Shown piece after piece: positions 7,718 through 43,611 of a stretch of DNA of 64,000 nt. Source of the stretch: an uncultured Bacilli bacterium. Lineage in GTDB: Bacteria > Bacillota_I > Bacilli_A > RF39 > UBA660. The stretch is taken from the NCBI GenBank assembly GCA_944329385.1, contig CALVIE010000001.1, positions 2,168 through 66,167 of the forward strand, written 5' to 3'. Both the position numbers and the translations under genes were made by a program. Within the stretch, counting starts at the first letter, position 1; each line of letters starts with the position of its first letter. Below the pieces are notes generated by a model. The model was not told the DNA's origin. It made no database searches and saw only the letters and a program-made list of their open reading frames with translations.

Positions 7718-9808
7718 TTATGGGTAAATTTCAAAGTATTTTTTTGAAACTCGGTTAGTTAACCTTTTATTTATGGCTGATTGATGGTTTGAACGACCGT
7801 TTGGTACCGAAATGTTTGGCGAAACAACTGTGAATGTGACTTCTGGGTTATCATAAGGAGCATAAGCCACAAAAGTTGTACTGATAGTTTCAGTGTCTAT
7901 TTTTCCATCTTTGTTGGTATCAACAAAACTTTGGCTGGTTCCTGTTTTTCCGGCTGGTTTATAAGTCTTATCAATATATCCAACGCCTAAGCCATAGCTT
8001 GTAACTGCTTCAAATCCTTCTTTTACTCTATCGATATATTTTGCTTCAGTATCAACTTTATTTAATTCTTTTTTGTTTTGGTCATATGTCGTTTTATCGT
8101 TATAAAGGCCTTTATAGAGATATGGCCTCATTCTAGTGCCGTTATTAGCAATAGTACTAATATATTGTGATAGTTGGATTGGGGTATAATTATCATACTG
8201 ACCTATTGAAAAATCTAATAATAATCCTGAGGTGGTGTTTGTTCCTTTTAAGCCAGTTGTTTCATTTGGAAGATCAATGCCAGTTTTGACACCTAAGCCA
8301 AACTGGGCGAAGGTATTTCTATATATGTTAAAGGCTTCTTTATCAATAACTAATGGTTTATTATATTTATAATTTCCTTTACCAACTTTAATTGCAGTAT
8401 AGTACTGATAGGTGTTTGAAGATTGAGCTAAAGCTGTGATGTCATTTAATCTACCAAGATATTTCCATGAACATTTTTCTGGAGTAGCAGCTATTTTGAC
8501 ACAATTATCGTATCTTACTTCGCCTATTTTTAAAGCACCGGTATTATATCCAACAATATGGCTAGCACCTTTGACGACTGATCCCATAACTGCTGTTGAC
8601 TGGGTAATTCCAGCGGTAAAATCTATGGTACTATAAGAACCATCATCATTTTGTTTTAATTGTTTTCCAGCCATAGCCAATATTTCACCTGTTTTAGGGT
8701 TAGTAACTACGACGAATGAGCCATTATAATATTCTGTGTTAGCTTCTTTTTTGGCATTTATAACTTCTTCGGTTAATATTTCTTCTAAGGCTTTTTGAAG
8801 TTCAATGTCAATTGTTAGGACAATGTCATTACCTCTTTTACCTTCTTCTAGGAGTTTATATGAGCCATCGTTCATGACTTGGTACTTATTTTTTTTACCT
8901 TTTAAAATATCTTCATACATATATTCTAGGTTACTAGTTCCTACTCTATCATCTAGACTATAACCTTTTTTTAAATATTCATCTTTGAGTTCGGCAGGGA
9001 TTCCACTTTTACTTGATGAAACGTTGCCCAAGATACTTTTAAAAACATTACCATAAGGATAGGTTCTTTCCCAGTCTAATTTAGTATTTATTCCTTTTAA
9101 TTCACTTAAGTTTTCTGAAACTAAAGCATATTCTTCGTCGGTGACGTTTTCATTTTTGATGGTTTTTTCGTCATATGAATAACCGGTATTCATAAGGGTA
9201 TATATATAAGCTGCTTTTTTGTCTAGTTCATTATATATTGCTAGTTCTTCTTCAGTTACTCTTTCAATTTTCAAATTATAAATTTCATCACTTGTGAGTT
9301 TTCTTTCATCTAATTTTTGCCATTCTTCATCAGTTATCTTTTTATTTGCTTCTTTTGGATGATTTTTTATCCAAAAGTTTTTGAAATCATAGTCATTTAA
9401 TTTTATTTCAAGGTTTATCATATTTGCAAGTTTATAGGCTGTTTTGATTTCTTCTTCGGTGGTTATGCCTGATGGCTTTTTATAGTATATTACTTTAGAG
9501 GGAATATTATCGACAATGAGTTTACCATTTCTATCATAAATTCTTCCTCTTGGAGCAGTTTCACCATAGATTACTGTTTTGGTAAGGTTTTCTAATTTTT
9601 TACTATATTTTTCTTTTCCAACCACTTGAATTAAAAATAGTGATGTGACTAGTATTAAAAGAGCTAAAACAATTAAAAATGTTAATATGTTATAACGTTT
9701 TTCTATTTCAATTTTAATGTCTTTATTTTCTTTATAAGAATTGAAATTATAGTTTGGTTTTCTTTGTTTTTTAGAAACTTTTAATGCTTTTGGTTTTTTC
9801 TTTTTCAA
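7718..9808 (-). CDS. class B penicillin-binding protein (PBP2B/SpoVD-like transpeptidase)
   Basis: N-terminal TM anchor, a PBP dimerisation region and a transpeptidase domain with the KTGT motif (PAGKTGTSQ); 696 aa. Confidence 0.8.
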   Translation of the reverse strand: MKKKKPKALKVSKKQRKPNYNFNSYKENKDIKIEIEKRYNILTFLIVLALLILVTSLFLIQVVGKEKYSKKLENLTKTVIYGETAPRGRIYDRNGKLIVDNIPSKVIYYKKPSGITTEEEIKTAYKLANMINLEIKLNDYDFKNFWIKNHPKEANKKITDEEWQKLDERKLTSDEIYNLKIERVTEEELAIYNELDKKAAYIYTLMNTGYSYDEKTIKNENVTDEEYALVSENLSELKGINTKLDWERTYPYGNVFKSILGNVSSSKSGIPAELKDEYLKKGYSLDDRVGTSNLEYMYEDILKGKKNKYQVMNDGSYKLLEEGKRGNDIVLTIDIELQKALEEILTEEVINAKKEANTEYYNGSFVVVTNPKTGEILAMAGKQLKQNDDGSYSTIDFTAGITQSTAVMGSVVKGASHIVGYNTGALKIGEVRYDNCVKIAATPEKCSWKYLGRLNDITALAQSSNTYQYYTAIKVGKGNYKYNKPLVIDKEAFNIYRNTFAQFGLGVKTGIDLPNETTGLKGTNTTSGLLLDFSIGQYDNYTPIQLSQYISTIANNGTRMRPYLYKGLYNDKTTYDQNKKELNKVDTEAKYIDRVKEGFEAVTSYGLGVGYIDKTYKPAGKTGTSQSFVDTNKDGKIDTETISTTFVAYAPYDNPEVTFTVVSPNISVPNGRSNHQSAINKRLTNRVSKKYFEIYP

Positions 9809-22942: not shown

Positions 22943-23200
22943 CTACTTCTCTTTGTATTTTGCTTCTAATATTATTTTTTTATTTTTTTGTTTCTTTTTT
23001 ATATTTTTAAAATATGGTTTTATGAATTTGTATACTTTATATAAGAAATAACATACTAAAGCAAATAAAACTATATAAATAAAAATATGGGCGAGAAAAA
23101 ATAAAATAGTTACTCCTAAAATAAATAATAAAACTTGCTTTAAATTAATGTTCAAAAAAATCACCTCAACAATTATAACATGGTTTACCTTTATTTTCAA
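22943..23200 (-). CDS. hypothetical small membrane protein
   Basis: Two predicted TM helices and a K-rich tail; support is weak. Confidence 0.3.
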   Translation of the reverse strand: MKIKVNHVIIVEVIFLNINLKQVLLFILGVTILFFLAHIFIYIVLFALVCYFLYKVYKFIKPYFKNIKKKQKNKKIILEAKYKEK

Positions 23201-23235: not shown

Positions 23236-23468
23236 TTGACTAATCTTAAAAAAAATGTTAATATTAGGTTAGTAAATCGATGACAAAGAATAGTAATTTA
23301 AGTTTTATTTTTTAGAGAATCAGTGGTATGGTGAAAACTGATAATAAACTTATATGAATCTACTTTGGAGAGAAGTTAAAAACTTCCGGGATGACCGTTA
23401 TCATAATTAAGACAGCCGTATAGGATGGTACCGTATTACATATACTCCTAACAATAGGCTGTTTTTGC
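23236..23468 (+). promoter_or_regulatory. promoter plus T-box riboswitch leader (probable Ser specifier) controlling the 23487..25282 operon
   Basis: Promoter TTGACT-17-TAATAT at 23236-23264. Leader elements are AGAGA, a distal stem I hairpin ATCAGT...ACTGAT, GAA-UCU-A (candidate Ser specifier), F-box CCGTTA and T-box GGATGGTACCGT at 23423-23434. A terminator hairpin CAGCC..TAGGA/TCCTA..GGCTG followed by TTTTT ends at 23468. Confidence 0.7.
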
Positions 23469-23486
23469 TTTAAAAGGAGGTCTAAT

Positions 23487-23999
23487 ATGGATAATTGGTT
23501 AAAATATTTTAATAAAGAAGAGATTGCGGGGTTTATGGATGCAGAAAATCTTTATGGAAAGGCTTATTTGATTTGCGAGCGTGTTTTTTATGGGAAAAAA
23601 AGAAAATCTGGTATGCCCTATTTGACTTATTTAAAATCGGTGGCAGATAAATTTTCGGATGACAAAGCAAAGGCTACTTCGCTTTTACACAATATTATGA
23701 AAGAAACTAATATTACAGCTAATGATTTAAGTGAGATTGGTTTTCCAAGTGATGTGGTGAAAACTGTAGTTTTAATGACAAGAAAGCAAGGGGAATCTTA
23801 TGATGAATTTATAAACCGTATTATTGACAGTAAAAATAATATTGCTGTGCAAATTAAGAAAGCTGATATTGAGCAAAGTATGAATTTAGATGATATTGTA
23901 GTTACTGATGATTATTTAAACAGAATTGAAGTTAAATATAAACCACAATATGAAAAAATTATGGGATATTTGACTGACTTGGAAGGAGAAATTAGATGA
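23487..23999 (+). CDS. HD-domain protein related to (p)ppGpp hydrolase (RelA/SpoT/Mesh1-like) with all catalytic residues substituted; a pseudo-hydrolase
   Basis: YGKKRKSGMPYLTYLKSVA aligns with AHxGQxRKSGEPYIxHPLxVA (HP -> TY). LLHNIMKET aligns with LHDVVEDT (HD -> HN). KKADIEQSMNL aligns with KLADRLHNMRT. Its stop overlaps the serS start (ATGA). Confidence 0.55.
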   Translation: MDNWLKYFNKEEIAGFMDAENLYGKAYLICERVFYGKKRKSGMPYLTYLKSVADKFSDDKAKATSLLHNIMKETNITANDLSEIGFPSDVVKTVVLMTRKQGESYDEFINRIIDSKNNIAVQIKKADIEQSMNLDDIVVTDDYLNRIEVKYKPQYEKIMGYLTDLEGEIR

Positions 24000-25282
24000 T
24001 TGATATTAAATTAATACGTGAAAATAGAGATTTAGTTAAGGAAAATATTAAAAAGAAGTTTCAAGATAAGAAACTTCCTTTAGTTGATGAGGTATATGAA
24101 CTTGATATTAAATGCCGTGAAGCTAAGTTAAAAGGTGATGAATTAAGGGCTTTAAAAAATGAAAAAAGTGCTTTAATTGGAGCTTTAATGAGGGATGGAA
24201 AAAAAGAGGAAGCAGAAAAGGTAAAAAAAGAAATTAGTTCATATAGTGATGAAATTTTATATTTAGAGAAAAAAGAAGAAGAATATAGGGGTAAAATTCA
24301 TGAAGATATGATGGTAATTCCAAATATTATGGATCCATCTGTTCCTATAGGTGAAGATGATAGTAAAAATGTGGAGTTAGAAAAATTTGGAGATCCTATT
24401 ATTCCAATATTTGAAATTCCACATCATGCGGATATTTGTGCGAAGTTTAATGGATTAGATAAGGAAAGTGCTGGGAGAACTAGTGGAAATGGTTTTTATT
24501 ATTTGATGGGCGATATTGCAAGACTGCATTCTGCTATGATTAGTTATGCTCGCGATTTTATGATTGATAAAGGTTTTACATATTGCATTCCCCCATTTAT
24601 GATTAGAAGTGATGTTGTAAATGGAGTTATGAGTTTTGAGGAAATGGATGCAATGATGTATAAAATTGAAGAAGAGGATTTATATTTGATTGGAACATCT
24701 GAACATTCTATGATAGGAAAATTTCAAGGAGAAATTATTAAAGAGGAAGAACTTCCTATTACTTTGACTAGTTATTCACCATGTTTTAGAAAAGAAGTAG
24801 GAGCTCACGGTATTGAAGAAAGAGGTTTATATAGAGTTCATCAATTTGAAAAACAAGAAATGGTGGTTTTATGTAAAAAAGAAGATGGTATGAAGTTTTA
24901 TGATAAAATGTGGAAATATACTGTGGAATTTTTCAGGAGTTTAGATATTCCAGTAAGAACATTAGAATGTTGCAGCGGAGATTTAGCTGATTTAAAGGTT
25001 AAATCATGTGATGTTGAAGCTTTTAGTCCTAGACAAAACAAGTATTTTGAGGTTGGTTCTTGCTCTATTTTAGGTGATGCACAAGCTAGAAGGCTCGGAA
25101 TACGTATGAAAACTAAAAATGGTAATGAATATGTTACTACTTTAAATAATACTGTTTTAGCTACTCCTAGAGGTTTAATCGCATTTTTAGAAAATAATGT
25201 AAATGAAGATGGTTCTGTTAATATTCCAAAAGTTTTAAGACCTTATATGGGTGGTAAAGAAAAACTAATTCCTAAAAACTAG
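23996..25282 (+). CDS. serS: serine--tRNA ligase
   Basis: N-terminal coiled-coil arm and class II core (motif 2/3 regions around FRKEVGAHGIEERGLYRVHQFEK and GSCS); 428 aa. Confidence 0.9.
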   Translation: MIDIKLIRENRDLVKENIKKKFQDKKLPLVDEVYELDIKCREAKLKGDELRALKNEKSALIGALMRDGKKEEAEKVKKEISSYSDEILYLEKKEEEYRGKIHEDMMVIPNIMDPSVPIGEDDSKNVELEKFGDPIIPIFEIPHHADICAKFNGLDKESAGRTSGNGFYYLMGDIARLHSAMISYARDFMIDKGFTYCIPPFMIRSDVVNGVMSFEEMDAMMYKIEEEDLYLIGTSEHSMIGKFQGEIIKEEELPITLTSYSPCFRKEVGAHGIEERGLYRVHQFEKQEMVVLCKKEDGMKFYDKMWKYTVEFFRSLDIPVRTLECCSGDLADLKVKSCDVEAFSPRQNKYFEVGSCSILGDAQARRLGIRMKTKNGNEYVTTLNNTVLATPRGLIAFLENNVNEDGSVNIPKVLRPYMGGKEKLIPKN

Positions 25283-41646: not shown

Positions 41647-43611
41647 ATGAAAAAGAAAAGGTCTAGAAAATGGATAATTATTATTTTAGGAATTATTTTC
41701 TTTTTTATTGCTATTTACTTTGGTATATATTTATATGCGAAAGTTCAGCCAAAATTACCAATTAGTGGAGCAAATGGTTATCATTTATATGACATTAATG
41801 GTGAGATTTATACAGCTGGTTCTAATGAAAATGTAGATTTAAAAGATATTTCTCGGCATTTAATTAATGCGACTATTGCGGTAGAGGATAAAAATTTTTA
41901 TAAACATCACGGTTTTGATTTTTTTAGAATTATTAAGGCAATGATGATTAATTTAAAATCTGGAGAAAATTTACAAGGGGCATCCACTATTACTCAACAA
42001 TATTCTAAAAATTTATTTTTAGATTTTGATAAGACTTGGGATAGAAAAATCAAAGAGGCTTGGATTACAATTAGGTTAGAAGCACATTACAGTAAGGATG
42101 ATATTTTAGAAGGATATTTAAATACAATTAATTATGGTGGAATATTTGGAATCGAAAATGCTTCTAAGTATTATTTTAATAAAAGTTCAAAAAAATTAAC
42201 TTTAGCTGAGGCAAGTATGCTTGCAGGAATTCCTAAAAACCCGAGTAAATATTCTCCTTTAACTAATGAAAAAGAAGCTAAAAAAAGGCAAAAAATTATT
42301 TTGGATGCGATGGTTAAAAATGGATATATTAGTCAAAGTGAAGCTGATGGTGCATATAATACTAAGCTTAATTATGAAAAAGGTACGGATGAGGAAAATT
42401 TAAAAATGATGATGTATTACCAAGATGCTGTAATGGACGAACTTTCAATGATTGATACTATTCCTTCTTCATTTTTGGAAACTGGTGGTCTTAAAATTTA
42501 TACTAATTTGGATATGAATGCTCAAAAAGCTCTAGAAGATAGTGCGAATAAAAATATAACTAATGAAGAAATTCAAATGGCAGGAGTGGTCATGGATCCT
42601 AAAAATGGGAAAGTTTTAGCTTTAGCTGGTGGCAGGGATTATAATAAAAGTCAATACAATAGAGCAACCAAAGCTAAAAGACAAGTTGGTTCAACAATTA
42701 AACCATTTTTGTACTATTCAGCTTTAGAAAATGGTTTTACTCCGTCTACAACTTTTACTAGTGAAAAAACAACTTTTAGTTTTTCAGGAAATAAAACTTA
42801 TACTCCTAAAAATTATAATGATGAGTATGCGAATGGTCCGATTAGTTTAGCGGCTGCTATTAGCTATTCAGATAATATTTATGCGGTTAAGACACATCTG
42901 TTTTTAGGTGATGATGCCTTACCAGATATTTTAAAGCGAGTTGGAATTAACGAAAATGTTAATACGTTGCCTTCACTTGCTTTAGGAGCCGAAGAAATTA
43001 ATATGATGGACATGATGGCCGCATATAGTGCTTTAGCAAATGAAGGTTATAAAGTTGAGCCTTATTTTATAAGTAAAGTTACAGATATGGATGATAATAT
43101 TTTATATGAATATAAACCTAAATTAGAAAATGTTTTAAATAAAAATACAGTTTATGTTTTAAATGAGCTTTTAACGACTACTTATGCGAAAGAGTTTCAA
43201 AGTTATAATACTCCTACTTGTCTTAGTATTGCTCCTAAAATGACACATAAATATGCATTAAAATCTGGAACCACTAATACTGATAATTTGATTTTTGGAT
43301 ATAATAAAGATGTAGTTGTGGGCATGTGGACAGGATATGATGATAATAAGGATGTATCTAGTAAAGACAGTTCTAATTTAAAAAATGCTTGGGTGGATGT
43401 GATGGAAACTTATTTGAAAGATAAGGATGATTCTAAACTTTGGTATGAAACACCTAAAAATGTTGTTGGAGTAGCTATAGATCCGGTAAGTGGTAAAATT
43501 GCCGATAATAATTCTAAAGCAAAGATTTTATATTATATTAAGGGAACTGAACCAACCGATAATAAAAGTTCTTTAGACGATAGTATTCCTACTGTCAAAT
43601 TAGAGGAATAA
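41647..43611 (+). CDS. class A penicillin-binding protein (bifunctional glycosyltransferase/transpeptidase, PBP1A-like)
   Basis: GT51 motifs EDKNFYKHHGFD and STITQQ; transpeptidase motifs STIKP, SYSDN and KSGTT. Confidence 0.85.
   Translation: MKKKRSRKWIIIILGIIFFFIAIYFGIYLYAKVQPKLPISGANGYHLYDINGEIYTAGSNENVDLKDISRHLINATIAVEDKNFYKHHGFDFFRIIKAMMINLKSGENLQGASTITQQYSKNLFLDFDKTWDRKIKEAWITIRLEAHYSKDDILEGYLNTINYGGIFGIENASKYYFNKSSKKLTLAEASMLAGIPKNPSKYSPLTNEKEAKKRQKIILDAMVKNGYISQSEADGAYNTKLNYEKGTDEENLKMMMYYQDAVMDELSMIDTIPSSFLETGGLKIYTNLDMNAQKALEDSANKNITNEEIQMAGVVMDPKNGKVLALAGGRDYNKSQYNRATKAKRQVGSTIKPFLYYSALENGFTPSTTFTSEKTTFSFSGNKTYTPKNYNDEYANGPISLAAAISYSDNIYAVKTHLFLGDDALPDILKRVGINENVNTLPSLALGAEEINMMDMMAAYSALANEGYKVEPYFISKVTDMDDNILYEYKPKLENVLNKNTVYVLNELLTTTYAKEFQSYNTPTCLSIAPKMTHKYALKSGTTNTDNLIFGYNKDVVVGMWTGYDDNKDVSSKDSSNLKNAWVDVMETYLKDKDDSKLWYETPKNVVGVAIDPVSGKIADNNSKAKILYYIKGTEPTDNKSSLDDSIPTVKLEE

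What the first reader, a model, noticed from the sequence alone, without database searches (positions are those of the whole stretch)
23487..23999. Catalytically dead (p)ppGpp-hydrolase-like HD protein co-transcribed with serS
The 170-aa protein aligns along its length with the RelA/SpoT/Mesh1 hydrolase HD domain (RKSG.PY..., FG..V...V..TR). Every metal-binding or catalytic position is substituted: HP to TY, HD to HN, and ADRLHN to ADIEQS. This is a pseudo-enzyme of the stringent-response hydrolase fold. Sharing a T-box with serS suggests a role in sensing or relaying alarmone or aminoacylation status, not in hydrolysing ppGpp.
Basis: partly seen in the sequence, partly recalled or inferred. 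Interest (0 to 1): 0.6.

Follow-up and report, generated by a model that had tools for sequence, protein, structure and literature searches.

The report
Degenerate ppApp-hydrolase homologue in serS operon
A small gene that shares a serine-sensing T-box switch with the seryl-tRNA synthetase gene encodes a relative of (p)ppApp-degrading enzymes that has lost key catalytic residues but is still under strong selection, and its closest relatives in other uncultured gut Bacilli sit in the same operon with every catalytic residue intact.

Summary
The ORF at 23487..23999 is real. It is the first gene of a tRNA-Ser T-box operon (specifier UCU) and overlaps serS by 4 nt (ATGA).

Its closest characterised relative is Aph1, the Bacteroides caccae (p)ppApp hydrolase (PDB 7SMG): sequence E 1e-14, family profile 3e-25, AF2 model TM 0.91. 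Similarity to Rel/SpoT/Mesh1 is weaker, and Pfam HD_4 gives no hit.

- Kept: H68 and D127.

The degenerate form is confined to one narrow clade: Ca. Coprosoma / CAG-822, order RF39, 18 GTDB species. All members have KE and lack the two Aph adenine-specificity residues. Y48, N69 and S131 arose only in sub-branches.

dN/dS is about 0.08, similar to SerRS, so this is not a decaying gene.

The main new point is that nine of ten close canonical relatives tested also lie directly upstream of serS, with all catalytic and Aph-signature residues intact. Seven of the nine have a detectable T-box. T-box, aph-like gene, then serS is therefore an ancestral and, as far as I could find, undescribed operon.

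Best reading: a pseudo-hydrolase that now works by binding rather than hydrolysis. An alarmone-sensor role is not supported, because the base-contact positions drift freely.

The parts
23236..23264 (+). Promoter-like site, TTGACT-17-TAATAT with a TG extension, just upstream of the T-box leader
   Evidence: Consensus scan. It is a pattern match only: the region has no more such matches than shuffled sequence does.
23271..23452 (+). T-box leader RNA (RF00230), full-length match to the model
   Evidence: 86.5 bits, E 1e-18, below Rfam's gathering score of 93. Orthologous leaders score 88-98 bits. The alignment of 11 leaders is 88% identical.
23359..23361 (+). Specifier codon UCU (Ser) in the GAA-UCU-A specifier loop
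   Evidence: Invariant in all 11 aligned leaders. The same codon, or UCA, is present in the sister operons.
23410..23466 (+). Terminator hairpin (GACAGCC...GGCUGU) plus U-run. Its 5' arm overlaps the T-box sequence UAUAGGAUGGUACCG (23418-23432), which forms the competing antiterminator.
   Evidence: RNA fold at -16 kcal/mol. Both arms are invariant across the leaders.
23474..23480 (+). Ribosome-binding site AAGGAGG of the aph-like gene
   Evidence: Read directly from the sequence. It is conserved as a GGAGG-type motif in the orthologous leaders.
23487..23999 (+). aph-like pseudo-hydrolase gene (170 aa). Key codons: R39 at 23601-23603 (Aph1 D24), Y48 at 23628-23630 (H33), H68-N69 at 23688-23693 (H53-D54), K72-E73 at 23700-23705 (E57-D58), D127 at 23865-23867 (D110), S131 at 23877-23879 (N114), D136 at 23892-23894 (R119).
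   Evidence: dN/dS is 0.076-0.093.
23983..23988 (+). serS ribosome-binding site AAGGAG, embedded in the last codons (L-E-G-E) of the aph-like ORF, 7 nt before the serS ATG
   Evidence: A GGAG-type motif sits at the same place in all 15 other operon junctions examined.
23996..25282 (+). serS, seryl-tRNA synthetase (428 aa). Its start overlaps the upstream stop codon (ATGA).
   Evidence: TIGR00414 at E 4.4e-116. It lies directly downstream of the aph-like gene in 24 of 24 clade loci.

Best explanation
The gene encodes a stand-alone pseudo-hydrolase derived from an Aph1-type adenosine 3'-pyrophosphohydrolase ((p)ppApp hydrolase).

Shown:
- It is the first cistron of a two-gene operon, aph-like then serS.
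- Transcription of the operon is gated by a tRNA-Ser T-box (specifier UCU; terminator/antiterminator). The protein is therefore made together with SerRS when tRNA-Ser is uncharged.
- This operon layout is ancestral. Close relatives in other uncultured Bacilli have the same T-box, aph, serS arrangement with all catalytic residues (2H2D, ED, N) and the Aph adenine-specificity residues intact.
- In the Ca. Coprosoma / CAG-822 lineage the ED diad became K-E and the two specificity residues (Aph1 D24 and R119) were lost. Sub-branches, including this window, then also lost His33 (to Y), Asp54 (to N) and Asn114 (to S).
- The gene remains under strong purifying selection.
- New invariant residues appeared on helix alpha1 (L22, G24, Y27, L28, E31), in the 84-88 loop, and at the start of the C-terminal helix (Y143, L144).

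Inferred:
- The protein no longer hydrolyses 3'-pyrophosphates.
- It has been kept for a non-catalytic binding role connected with the SerRS / tRNA-Ser starvation response.
- That role most likely uses the N- and C-terminal helices, the elements that form the oligomer interface in Aph1. It may also use the retained phosphate-contacting residues (Y45, R111, K124, K150, Y151).
- It does not act by base-specific alarmone recognition.
For: Homology and fold:
- Aph1 (7smg) scores E 1e-14. The clade profile scores 3e-25 over residues 18-163.
- The AF2 model has pLDDT 95.2. Foldseek gives TM 0.91 and rmsd 1.7 A to 7smg.

Degeneration:
- Among 147 nearest non-clade relatives, the counts are H 144, H 144, D 145, E 142, D 138, D 142 and N 138. 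The D24 equivalent is present in 136 and the R119 equivalent in 127.
- In the clade, K72 is present in 30 of 31 and E73 in 31 of 31. There is never D at position 39 and never R at position 136. Y48 occurs in 17 of 31, N69 in 5 of 30 and S131 in 17 of 29.
- The register is gap-free: hhalign of clade against sister family gives probability 100% and E 1e-48.

Published mutagenesis:
- An HD-to-AA Aph1 mutant no longer protects cells.
- All of more than 10,000 Aph1 jackhmmer hits contained the HD motif (PMC10083569).

Selection:
- NG86 dN/dS is 0.076 against SerRS 0.064 for the closest pair, and 0.088-0.093 for the next pairs. Pyk is 0.087 and MutM 0.122.
- All 31 homologues are intact at 168-171 aa where full length.

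Shift of constraint:
- Eleven positions with zero or near-zero variation (entropy 0.20 or less) in the sister family become variable, or fixed to a new residue, in the clade.
- Eleven positions invariant in the clade are variable in the sister family.

Operon:
- The T-box and its Ser specifier are present.
- serS is adjacent in 24 of 24 clade loci.
- serS is adjacent for 9 of 10 canonical relatives tested. T-boxes are detected in 7 of those 9.
- All 33 members of the nearest canonical family carry the full motif set.
Against: - No activity or binding data exist. Loss of hydrolysis is predicted, not measured.
- H68, D127, K124, Y45, R111 and K150/Y151 are retained. A changed catalytic or ligand-binding site cannot be excluded, especially in clade members that keep all four 2H2D ligands (P0008-P0015, P0025, P0027).
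- The proposed interface is inferred from sequence constraint alone. I had no model coordinates and no way to predict a complex.
- The protein is acidic (pI 5.3; clade median 5.0), like its active relatives. Nothing points to general RNA binding.
- Relative to SerRS, the protein diverges about 5 times as fast within the clade, against 1.4-2.2 times in the canonical sisters. This indicates partial relaxation, although saturation makes the comparison rough.
Confidence: 0.6

Rival explanations
1. Alarmone sensor or sponge. The dead active site still binds (p)ppGpp or (p)ppApp without cleaving it. It then relays or buffers the signal while SerRS is induced.
For: - Phosphate-contacting residues of the parent family are retained: R111 (Aph1 R96), K124 (K107), K150/Y151 (K133/Y134) and Y45.
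- The fixed E-to-K change puts a positive charge where the second metal would sit. Engineered active-site lysine mutants of MESH1 (D66K) have been crystallised with a bound ligand (PAPS, 9chy; listed).
- The window protein itself has a Rel-like 'RKSG' motif.
Against: - The positions that read the base and ribose in Aph1 and Rel are invariant in the canonical sister family. These are the D24, K25, A26, N114, D116 and R119 equivalents, here positions 39, 40, 41, 131, 133 and 136.
- Within this clade the same positions have entropies of 0.9-1.8 bits.
- 'RKSG' becomes HSSG, NKAG, TKAG or HVSG in close relatives.
- A conserved nucleotide-specific pocket is therefore not being maintained.
Confidence: 0.15
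2. Still an enzyme, but with altered chemistry or substrate. The remodelled site (H68, D127, Y48/H48, N69/D69, K72, E73) might catalyse a different phosphoester hydrolysis relevant to serine or tRNA-Ser metabolism.
For: - K72 and E73 are fixed rather than drifting. H68, T74, K124 and D127 are invariant.
- About half of the clade keeps all four 2H2D metal ligands.
- RSH hydrolases are known to be catalytically versatile. MESH1 acts on NADPH and CoA. MESH1 and ATfaRel remove the 3'-pyrophosphate from tRNA CCA ends (bioRxiv 10.1101/2021.04.30.441581).
Against: - Metal ligands are interchangeable within a clade that is under purifying selection: H/Y at 48, D/N at 69, N/S at 131. On the NJ tree H to Y appears to have arisen twice. 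The M1 metal site is therefore not required for the conserved function.
- Mutating the first residue of the ED diad abolishes activity in the RSH hydrolases tested.
Confidence: 0.15
3. A functionless relic kept open only by operon architecture. The ORF carries the serS ribosome-binding site and is translationally coupled to serS, so frameshifts or stop codons would lower serS expression.
For: - The serS RBS lies inside the last codons of the ORF in all junctions examined, and the spacing is -4 to +11 nt.
- The active-site losses H to Y (CAY to TAY), D to N (GAY to AAY) and E to K (GAA to AAA) are all G/C-to-A/T transitions, in a genome window of 28% GC. This fits mutational decay.
- The protein evolves faster relative to SerRS than its canonical sisters do.
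Against: - dN/dS of 0.08-0.09 equals that of the housekeeping neighbours. Coupling alone would constrain the reading frame, not the amino-acid sequence.
- Twelve consecutive residues of helix alpha1 (22-33) are invariant or conservatively substituted across the 21 aligned clade members.
- New clade-specific invariant positions have appeared.
- There are no truncations among members in 18 species.
Confidence: 0.08

Closest known systems
Aph1 (adenosine 3'-pyrophosphohydrolase 1) of Bacteroides caccae, PDB 7SMG, and its family of (p)ppApp hydrolases (Ahmad et al. 2023, PMC10083569)
   Same: - Best sequence and fold match: E 1e-14 for the single sequence, 3e-25 for the profile, TM 0.91, 30% identity.
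- The same compact all-helical HD fold.
- It keeps the Aph-family residues R96, K107 and K133/Y134 and the ligands H53 and D110.
   Different: - H33 to Y, D54 to N, E57-D58 to K-E, and N114 to S.
- Specificity residues changed: D24 to R, D116 to N, R119 to D.
- An extra N-terminal segment of about 20 residues, shared with the serS-linked relatives.
- It is encoded in a T-box/serS operon rather than beside a (p)ppApp-synthetase toxin in a prophage.
serS-linked canonical Aph-like proteins of uncultured Bacilli (P0032 family, P0034, P0035, P0042, P0046 and the L029 protein; all unannotated 'hypothetical proteins')
   Same: - Same length and the same N-terminal extension.
- Full-length collinear alignment: hhalign E 1e-48, 39% identity.
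- The same operon: T-box (Ser), this gene, then serS, with the serS RBS inside the 3' end of the gene.
   Different: They keep every catalytic and Aph-signature residue. In the P0032 family 33 of 33 read D-K-G..H..HD..ED..D..N.D..R..KY. They are therefore predicted to be active hydrolases. The window clade is the degenerate offshoot.
The pseudo-hydrolase domain of the long RSH protein RelA
   Same: An RSH hydrolase fold whose catalytic residues have been lost, and which is retained for a non-catalytic role. RelA's hydrolase domain is described as catalytically inactive in PMC11554896.
   Different: RelA's dead domain is one module of a multidomain, ribosome-bound synthetase. The protein here is a free-standing 170-aa protein from the Aph branch, and the degeneration is recent, at about genus level.
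Small alarmone hydrolases that repair tRNA (human MESH1, C. marina ATfaRel; Kurata et al., bioRxiv 10.1101/2021.04.30.441581)
   Same: The same superfamily. They show that this fold can act on the 3'-terminal adenosine of tRNA (a 3'-pyrophosphate on CCA), which gives a biochemical route by which an Aph-type enzyme could be linked to an aminoacyl-tRNA synthetase.
   Different: Those enzymes are catalytically intact and are not encoded with aaRS genes. No tRNA activity has been shown for any Aph-family member or for this protein.
T-box leaders of aminoacyl-tRNA synthetase genes in Firmicutes
   Same: Stem I with a specifier loop (GAA-UCU-A), a T-box sequence, and mutually exclusive terminator and antiterminator structures.
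   Different: A non-synthetase gene sits between the leader and the synthetase gene. In this window the leader scores just under Rfam's gathering threshold (86.5 against 93), so a default scan misses it.

Membership tests
RSH (RelA/SpoT/Mesh1) hydrolase superfamily | Homologous all-helical HD fold | tested here: met
   The AF2 model has pLDDT 95.2. The top 50 Foldseek PDB hits are almost all RSH hydrolases or RSH hydrolase-domain proteins, led by 7smg at TM 0.91.
RSH (RelA/SpoT/Mesh1) hydrolase superfamily | Match to Pfam HD_4 (PF13328) at or above its threshold | tested here: not met
   No HD_4 hit even at E <= 10. The only related hit is a weak NCBIfam TIGR00691 match: E 2.6e-5, 22.8 bits against a cut-off of 499.
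RSH (RelA/SpoT/Mesh1) hydrolase superfamily | Invariant 2H2D metal site (H...HD...D) | tested here: not met
   The window protein has Y48, H68, N69 and D127, so two of the four ligands are lost. The motif's invariance is stated in PMC11554896.
RSH (RelA/SpoT/Mesh1) hydrolase superfamily | Invariant ED diad (second metal / catalysis) | tested here: not met
   K72-E73 in a gap-free register. K is present in 30 of 31 clade members and E in 31 of 31, against E in 142 and D in 138 of 147 relatives.
Aph1-type (p)ppApp hydrolases | Significant sequence homology to Aph1 over the whole domain | tested here: met
   E 1e-14 over residues 20-146. The profile scores E 3e-25 over residues 18-163, against Aph1 residues 3-141 of 149.
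Aph1-type (p)ppApp hydrolases | Molecular signature D24, R96, D116, R119, K133, Y134 (PMC10083569) | tested here: not met
   R111 (R96) and K150/Y151 (K133/Y134) are present. D24 is R39, D116 is N133 and R119 is D136. In the clade position 39 is never D and position 136 is never R.
Aph1-type (p)ppApp hydrolases | Hydrolysis of (p)ppApp | not testable with these tools
   This needs an enzyme assay. Activity is predicted to be absent from the state of the motifs.
T-box-regulated operon | T-box leader with specifier loop, T-box sequence, and terminator/antiterminator upstream of the first gene | tested here: met
   RF00230 at E 1e-18, 86.5 bits; this is below the gathering score of 93, but orthologous leaders score 88-98 bits. 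GAA-UCU-A is invariant. The terminator folds.
T-box-regulated operon | Specifier codon matching the amino acid of the regulated synthetase | tested here: met
   UCU (Ser) upstream of serS. The sister operons have UCU or UCA.
Pseudoenzyme (dead-enzyme homologue retained by selection) | Catalytic residues lost while the gene stays under purifying selection | tested here: met
   Motif loss is shown. dN/dS is 0.076-0.093 against 0.056-0.064 for SerRS. The clade is monophyletic in 100 of 100 bootstraps and sits among canonical relatives.
Pseudoenzyme (dead-enzyme homologue retained by selection) | Experimentally shown lack of the ancestral activity | not testable with these tools
   This needs biochemistry.

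The most novel reading that the evidence does not exclude
The T-box(Ser), aph-like, serS operon is an unrecognised physiological module. It couples adenosine 3'-pyrophosphate metabolism to the charging state of tRNA-Ser. The substrate could be (p)ppApp or a 3'-pyrophosphorylated tRNA CCA end.

On this reading, the Ca. Coprosoma lineage has converted the hydrolase into a naturally substrate-trapping or regulatory subunit. It would bind SerRS, or the 3' end of tRNA-Ser, instead of hydrolysing anything.
Probability: 0.2. Interest if true: 0.8.

Novelty: new variant of a known kind. Interest (0 to 1): 0.6.

Why it matters
Aph-type (p)ppApp hydrolases were described only in 2023. Outside toxin immunity, the physiological role of this family, and of (p)ppApp itself, is still open (PMC10083569).

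A subfamily that is wired behind a tRNA-Ser T-box and translated together with SerRS gives a concrete, testable setting: induction when tRNA-Ser is uncharged.

The Coprosoma clade is a natural experiment. The catalytic residues were dismantled step by step while the protein stayed under selection. It therefore separates whatever non-catalytic function exists from hydrolysis. As far as I could find, it would also be the first free-standing pseudo-hydrolase of the RSH superfamily.

Practically, all of these proteins are currently annotated as 'hypothetical'. Pfam does not recognise them, and the window's T-box is missed at Rfam's default threshold.

Tried and rejected
- Pfam scan of the protein: no HD_4 hit, only noise hits (DUF7557, DNAG_N).
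I therefore ran the genome scan with the clade alone.
- Metagenome scan with the P0032 family: mostly distant RSH hydrolases. Only one of its 80 loci (L029) was serS-linked.
- Supplementary datasets of the Aph1 paper, to see whether serS neighbours were already listed: not held. The main text mentions only 'translation' neighbours in general.
- Literature searches for T-box with ppApp, and for alarmone hydrolase with seryl-tRNA synthetase: nothing relevant. The 2008 T-box census does not mention an HD or hydrolase gene.
- AFDB Foldseek library: unavailable.
- Biopython bootstrap: timed out. I redid it with a numpy NJ. Deep branching among the canonical relatives is unresolved, so I do not claim a specific sister group.
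- Shift towards a basic, RNA-binding charge: none found. pI is 5.3, the same as the active relatives.
- RSH synthetase or second Aph paralogue in the window: none among the ten ORFs scanned (which included the five largest), and no second hit to the family profile. This says nothing about the rest of the genome.
- Rel-like 'RKSG' as evidence for guanine binding: rejected, because the motif is not conserved in the clade.
- HD-like protein / SerRS complex prediction: not attempted. The structure tool returns neither coordinates nor inter-chain error and accepts only window sequences.
Full report
**What is at the coordinates**

The window carries an ATG-started ORF at 23487..23999 (+), encoding 170 aa and preceded by AAGGAGG at 23474-23480. 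Its stop codon overlaps the start of the next ORF (ATGA). That ORF, 23996..25282, is seryl-tRNA synthetase (TIGR00414, E 4.4e-116).

Upstream, cmscan finds a full-length T-box leader at 23271..23452. It scores 86.5 bits, E 1e-18, just under Rfam's gathering score of 93. This is why a default gathering scan of the whole window returns nothing.

The leader has a specifier loop GAA-UCU-A (UCU is Ser, 23359-23361) and the T-box sequence UAUAGGAUGGUACCG. A terminator hairpin (GACAGCC...GGCUGU) with a U-run lies at 23410-23466 and folds at -16 kcal/mol. A promoter-like TTGACT-17-TAATAT with a TG extension lies at 23236-23264, but this is a pattern match only. The serS ribosome-binding site (AAGGAG, 23983-23988) lies inside the last codons of the upstream ORF.

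**What the protein is related to**

- Pfam gives no HD_4 hit, even at E <= 10.
- NCBIfam gives only a weak RelA/SpoT match: TIGR00691, E 2.6e-5, residues 26-104.
- Against PDB sequences the clear best hit is 7smg, Aph1, the (p)ppApp hydrolase of Bacteroides caccae. It scores E 1e-14 over residues 20-146.
- A profile of the protein's own clade raises this to E 3e-25 over residues 18-163. Rel proteins stay at about 1e-4.
- An AlphaFold2 model (pLDDT 95.2, pTM 0.90) superposes on 7smg with target-normalised TM 0.91 and rmsd 1.7 A. Mesh1, PaSAH, Rel and SpoT follow.

The fold assignment is therefore right. The parent family is the Aph branch, which is adenosine-specific, rather than the (p)ppGpp hydrolases.

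**State of the active site**

The gap-free HMMER and hhalign registers and the residue numbering of the Aph1 paper (PMC10083569) give this mapping:

| Aph1 | Window | State |
|---|---|---|
| H33 | Y48 | lost |
| H53 | H68 | kept |
| D54 | N69 | lost |
| E57-D58 (ED diad) | K72-E73 | lost |
| D110 | D127 | kept |
| N114 | S131 | lost |
| D24 (specificity) | R39 | lost |
| D116 (specificity) | N133 | lost |
| R119 (specificity) | D136 | lost |
| R96 | R111 | kept |
| K133/Y134 | K150/Y151 | kept |

The literature makes the losses meaningful. The 2H2D motif and the ED diad are invariant in RSH hydrolases, and E82Q in SpoT has no activity (PMC11554896). An HD-to-AA mutant of Aph1 no longer protects cells. 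All of more than 10,000 Aph1 jackhmmer hits carried the HD motif.

**How the degeneration is distributed**

The protein has 31 homologues in a 5.8-billion-sequence collection. These collapse into a single 50%-identity cluster among 1.8 billion representatives. The score then drops from 302 bits for the cluster's own representative (two truncated hits of 101 and 73 aa also belong to the clade) to about 150 bits for the best full-length non-clade protein, which is canonical Aph-like.

In GTDB species genomes the clade occurs in 18 species. They are labelled "uncultured Bacilli", Firmicutes bacterium CAG:822 and Candidatus Coprosoma. Three of the eighteen are complete chromosomes, of 1.34-1.54 Mb. 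Ca. Coprosoma is the GTDB genus CAG-822, family CAG-822, order RF39 (PMC8035907).

Counts at the key columns:

| Position (window / Aph1) | 147 nearest non-clade relatives | Clade |
|---|---|---|
| 48 / H33 | H 144 | Y 17, H 14 |
| 68 / H53 | H 144 | H 30 of 30 |
| 69 / D54 | D 145 | N 5 of 30 (window and P0001-P0004), otherwise D |
| 72 / E57 | E 142 | K 30 of 31 |
| 73 / D58 | D 138 | E 31 of 31 |
| 127 / D110 | D 142 | D 29 of 29 |
| 131 / N114 | N 138 | S 17, N 12 |
| 39 / D24 | D 136 | never D (H, N, R or T) |
| 136 / R119 | R 127 | never R |

The order of events is therefore as follows. First the ED diad and the adenine-specificity residues were lost in the common ancestor. Then the metal ligands eroded piecemeal in sub-branches.

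A neighbour-joining tree recovers the clade as monophyletic in 100 of 100 bootstraps. It sits on a long stem among canonical relatives. The tree suggests that H48 to Y arose twice. The losses H to Y, D to N and E to K are all G/C-to-A/T transitions, in a window of 28% GC.

**It is not a decaying gene**

- For the closest pair (L007, dS 0.68), dN/dS is 0.076 against 0.064 for SerRS.
- For the next pairs it is 0.088-0.093. SerRS is 0.056-0.061, Pyk 0.087 and MutM 0.122.
- At larger distances dS saturates and the ratios rise.
- Every full-length member is 168-171 aa.

I compared per-site variability in the clade (27 sequences, mean entropy 0.78) with the nearest canonical family (33 sequences, mean entropy 1.00).

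- Eleven positions invariant or nearly so (entropy 0.20 or less) in the canonical family are variable in the clade: 39, 40, 41, 48, 50, 65, 131, 133 and 136. Two more, 72 and 73, are fixed to new residues.
- New invariant positions appear on helix alpha1 (L22, G24, Y27, L28, E31), in the 84-88 loop (I84, P87, S88) and at Y143/L144.
- Y45, H68, T74, K124, D127 and Y151 are conserved in both groups.
- Relative to SerRS, the protein diverges about 5 times as fast within the clade and 1.4-2.2 times as fast among the canonical sisters. Saturation makes this a rough comparison.

**The operon is older than the degeneration**

All 24 clade loci have serS immediately downstream, with a gap of -4 to +11 nt. 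Every locus with enough upstream DNA that was scanned below Rfam's gathering score has the Ser T-box; L010, L013 and L024 fell below the gathering score but carry the same leader.

I then looked at the nearest canonical relatives.

| Protein | Locus | serS directly downstream | T-box upstream |
|---|---|---|---|
| P0200 | L025 | yes | 104 bits |
| P0207 | L026 | yes | none found |
| P0208 | L027 | yes | 91.5 bits |
| P0190 | L028 | yes | 103 bits |
| metagenome protein | L029 | yes | 105 bits |
| P0034 | L109 | yes | 74 bits |
| P0035 | L110 | yes | too little upstream DNA |
| P0046 | L112 | yes | 65.6 bits |
| P0042 | L113 | yes | 84.6 bits |
| P0054 | L111 | no | none |

- These loci lie in different flanking contexts.
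- Where readable, the specifier is UCU or UCA.
- All 33 members of the P0032 family have the complete motif set D-K-G..H..HD..ED..D..N.D..R..KY.
- P0054 is 151 aa and lacks the N-terminal extension.
- The 79 more distant metagenome loci are not linked to serS.
- P0208 is a MAG labelled "Lactobacillales bacterium".

A subfamily of predicted active Aph-type hydrolases therefore sits between a tRNA-Ser T-box and serS. This subfamily is marked by an N-terminal extension of about 20 residues. The window's protein is its degenerate offshoot.

I found no description of this operon in the searchable literature. All members that carry a source name are called "hypothetical" or "uncharacterized".

**How it most likely works**

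Shown: the protein is produced together with SerRS when uncharged tRNA-Ser stabilises the antiterminator.

Inferred:
- It no longer performs the metal-dependent 3'-pyrophosphate hydrolysis of its ancestors.
- Selection now acts on the exposed faces of the N-terminal helix and on the start of the long C-terminal helix. In Aph1 these are the elements that build the tetramer interface.
- Selection also acts on a set of phosphate-contacting residues.

I therefore favour a non-catalytic binding role tied to the SerRS / tRNA-Ser response: an oligomeric scaffold or partner-binding subunit. My rough confidences are:
- about 0.9 for the identity of the protein and the operon;
- about 0.8 for loss of the canonical activity;
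- about 0.4 for the specific binding mode.

The alarmone-sensor idea is weakened because the positions that read the base and ribose drift freely within the clade. The window's Rel-like "RKSG" is HSSG, NKAG or TKAG in its relatives.

A re-tooled enzyme cannot be excluded. K72, E73, H68 and D127 are fixed, and half of the clade keeps 2H2D. However, the interchangeability of H/Y, D/N and N/S under purifying selection argues that the metal site is not needed.

A pure relic held open by translational coupling is unlikely given dN/dS of about 0.08.

A role in general RNA binding gains no support from charge: pI is 5.3, like the active relatives.

For the ancestral active form there are two candidate substrates. 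One is (p)ppApp: 12 of 12 Aph homologues tested hydrolyse ppApp. The other is the 3'-pyrophosphorylated CCA end of tRNA, which MESH1 and ATfaRel can repair (bioRxiv 10.1101/2021.04.30.441581). This is a lead, not a finding.

**Verdict**

[quoted passage not shown] holds. "Every catalytic position", "ppGpp hydrolase-like" and "alarmone sensor" do not.
- Novelty: a new variant of a known kind. It is a free-standing, recently degenerated member of the Aph family, and it reveals an undescribed T-box, aph, serS operon.
- Interest: 0.6.

Noticed in passing
window 23271..23452: The serS-operon T-box scores 86.5 bits, below Rfam's gathering score of 93. A default gathering scan of the whole 64-kb window reports no RNA family at all. 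Orthologous leaders in sister genomes score 88-98 bits.
   Followed up: yes
P0039 (159 aa, from the representatives search): An independently degenerate Aph-like protein outside the Coprosoma clade: HD to RD, ED to GN, and the last Asp to Tyr. P0122, P0153 and P0173 also have broken motifs. Dead Aph-like proteins may have arisen several times.
   Followed up: no
P0033 (319 aa): A protein made of two tandem, apparently intact Aph-like domains (two HD..ED..D..N motif sets).
   Followed up: no
L026 3094..4501: In this sister locus the canonical aph-like gene starts 2 nt after a Peptidase_M19 gene. No T-box was found anywhere in the locus, unlike the other serS-linked loci. The regulation may differ, or the leader may lie further upstream.
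   Followed up: partly
window 22943..23200 (-): An 85-aa ORF divergent from the T-box promoter region. It has a hydrophobic core and a Lys-rich tail and matches no Pfam family. ORFs of 75 aa (L001) and 65 aa (L005) sit at a similar position in the orthologous loci. The strongest promoter-like match in the scanned region (TTGAAA-17-TATAAT, 11 of 12, at 23200-23172 on the minus strand) overlaps its start codon.
   Followed up: no
window 23996..25282 versus loci L001-L024: SerRS is unusually conserved across the clade (89.5-98.4% identity), while synonymous divergence is already about 0.7-1.2. Pyk is 84-89% and MutM 75-85% identical for the same genome pairs.
   Followed up: partly
L027 4001..4441 (P0208, 146 aa, versus P0235, 166 aa): Two gene calls of different length fall in one 90%-identity cluster, and for both the longest contig is 208,713 bp. 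The NCBI model of this canonical member therefore probably starts too late and omits the N-terminal extension shared by the serS-linked subfamily.
   Followed up: no
window 7718..9808 (-), 41647..43611 (+): The window encodes class A and class B penicillin-binding proteins. This RF39-order organism with a chromosome of about 1.4 Mb therefore makes peptidoglycan, unlike the wall-less Mollicutes.
   Followed up: no
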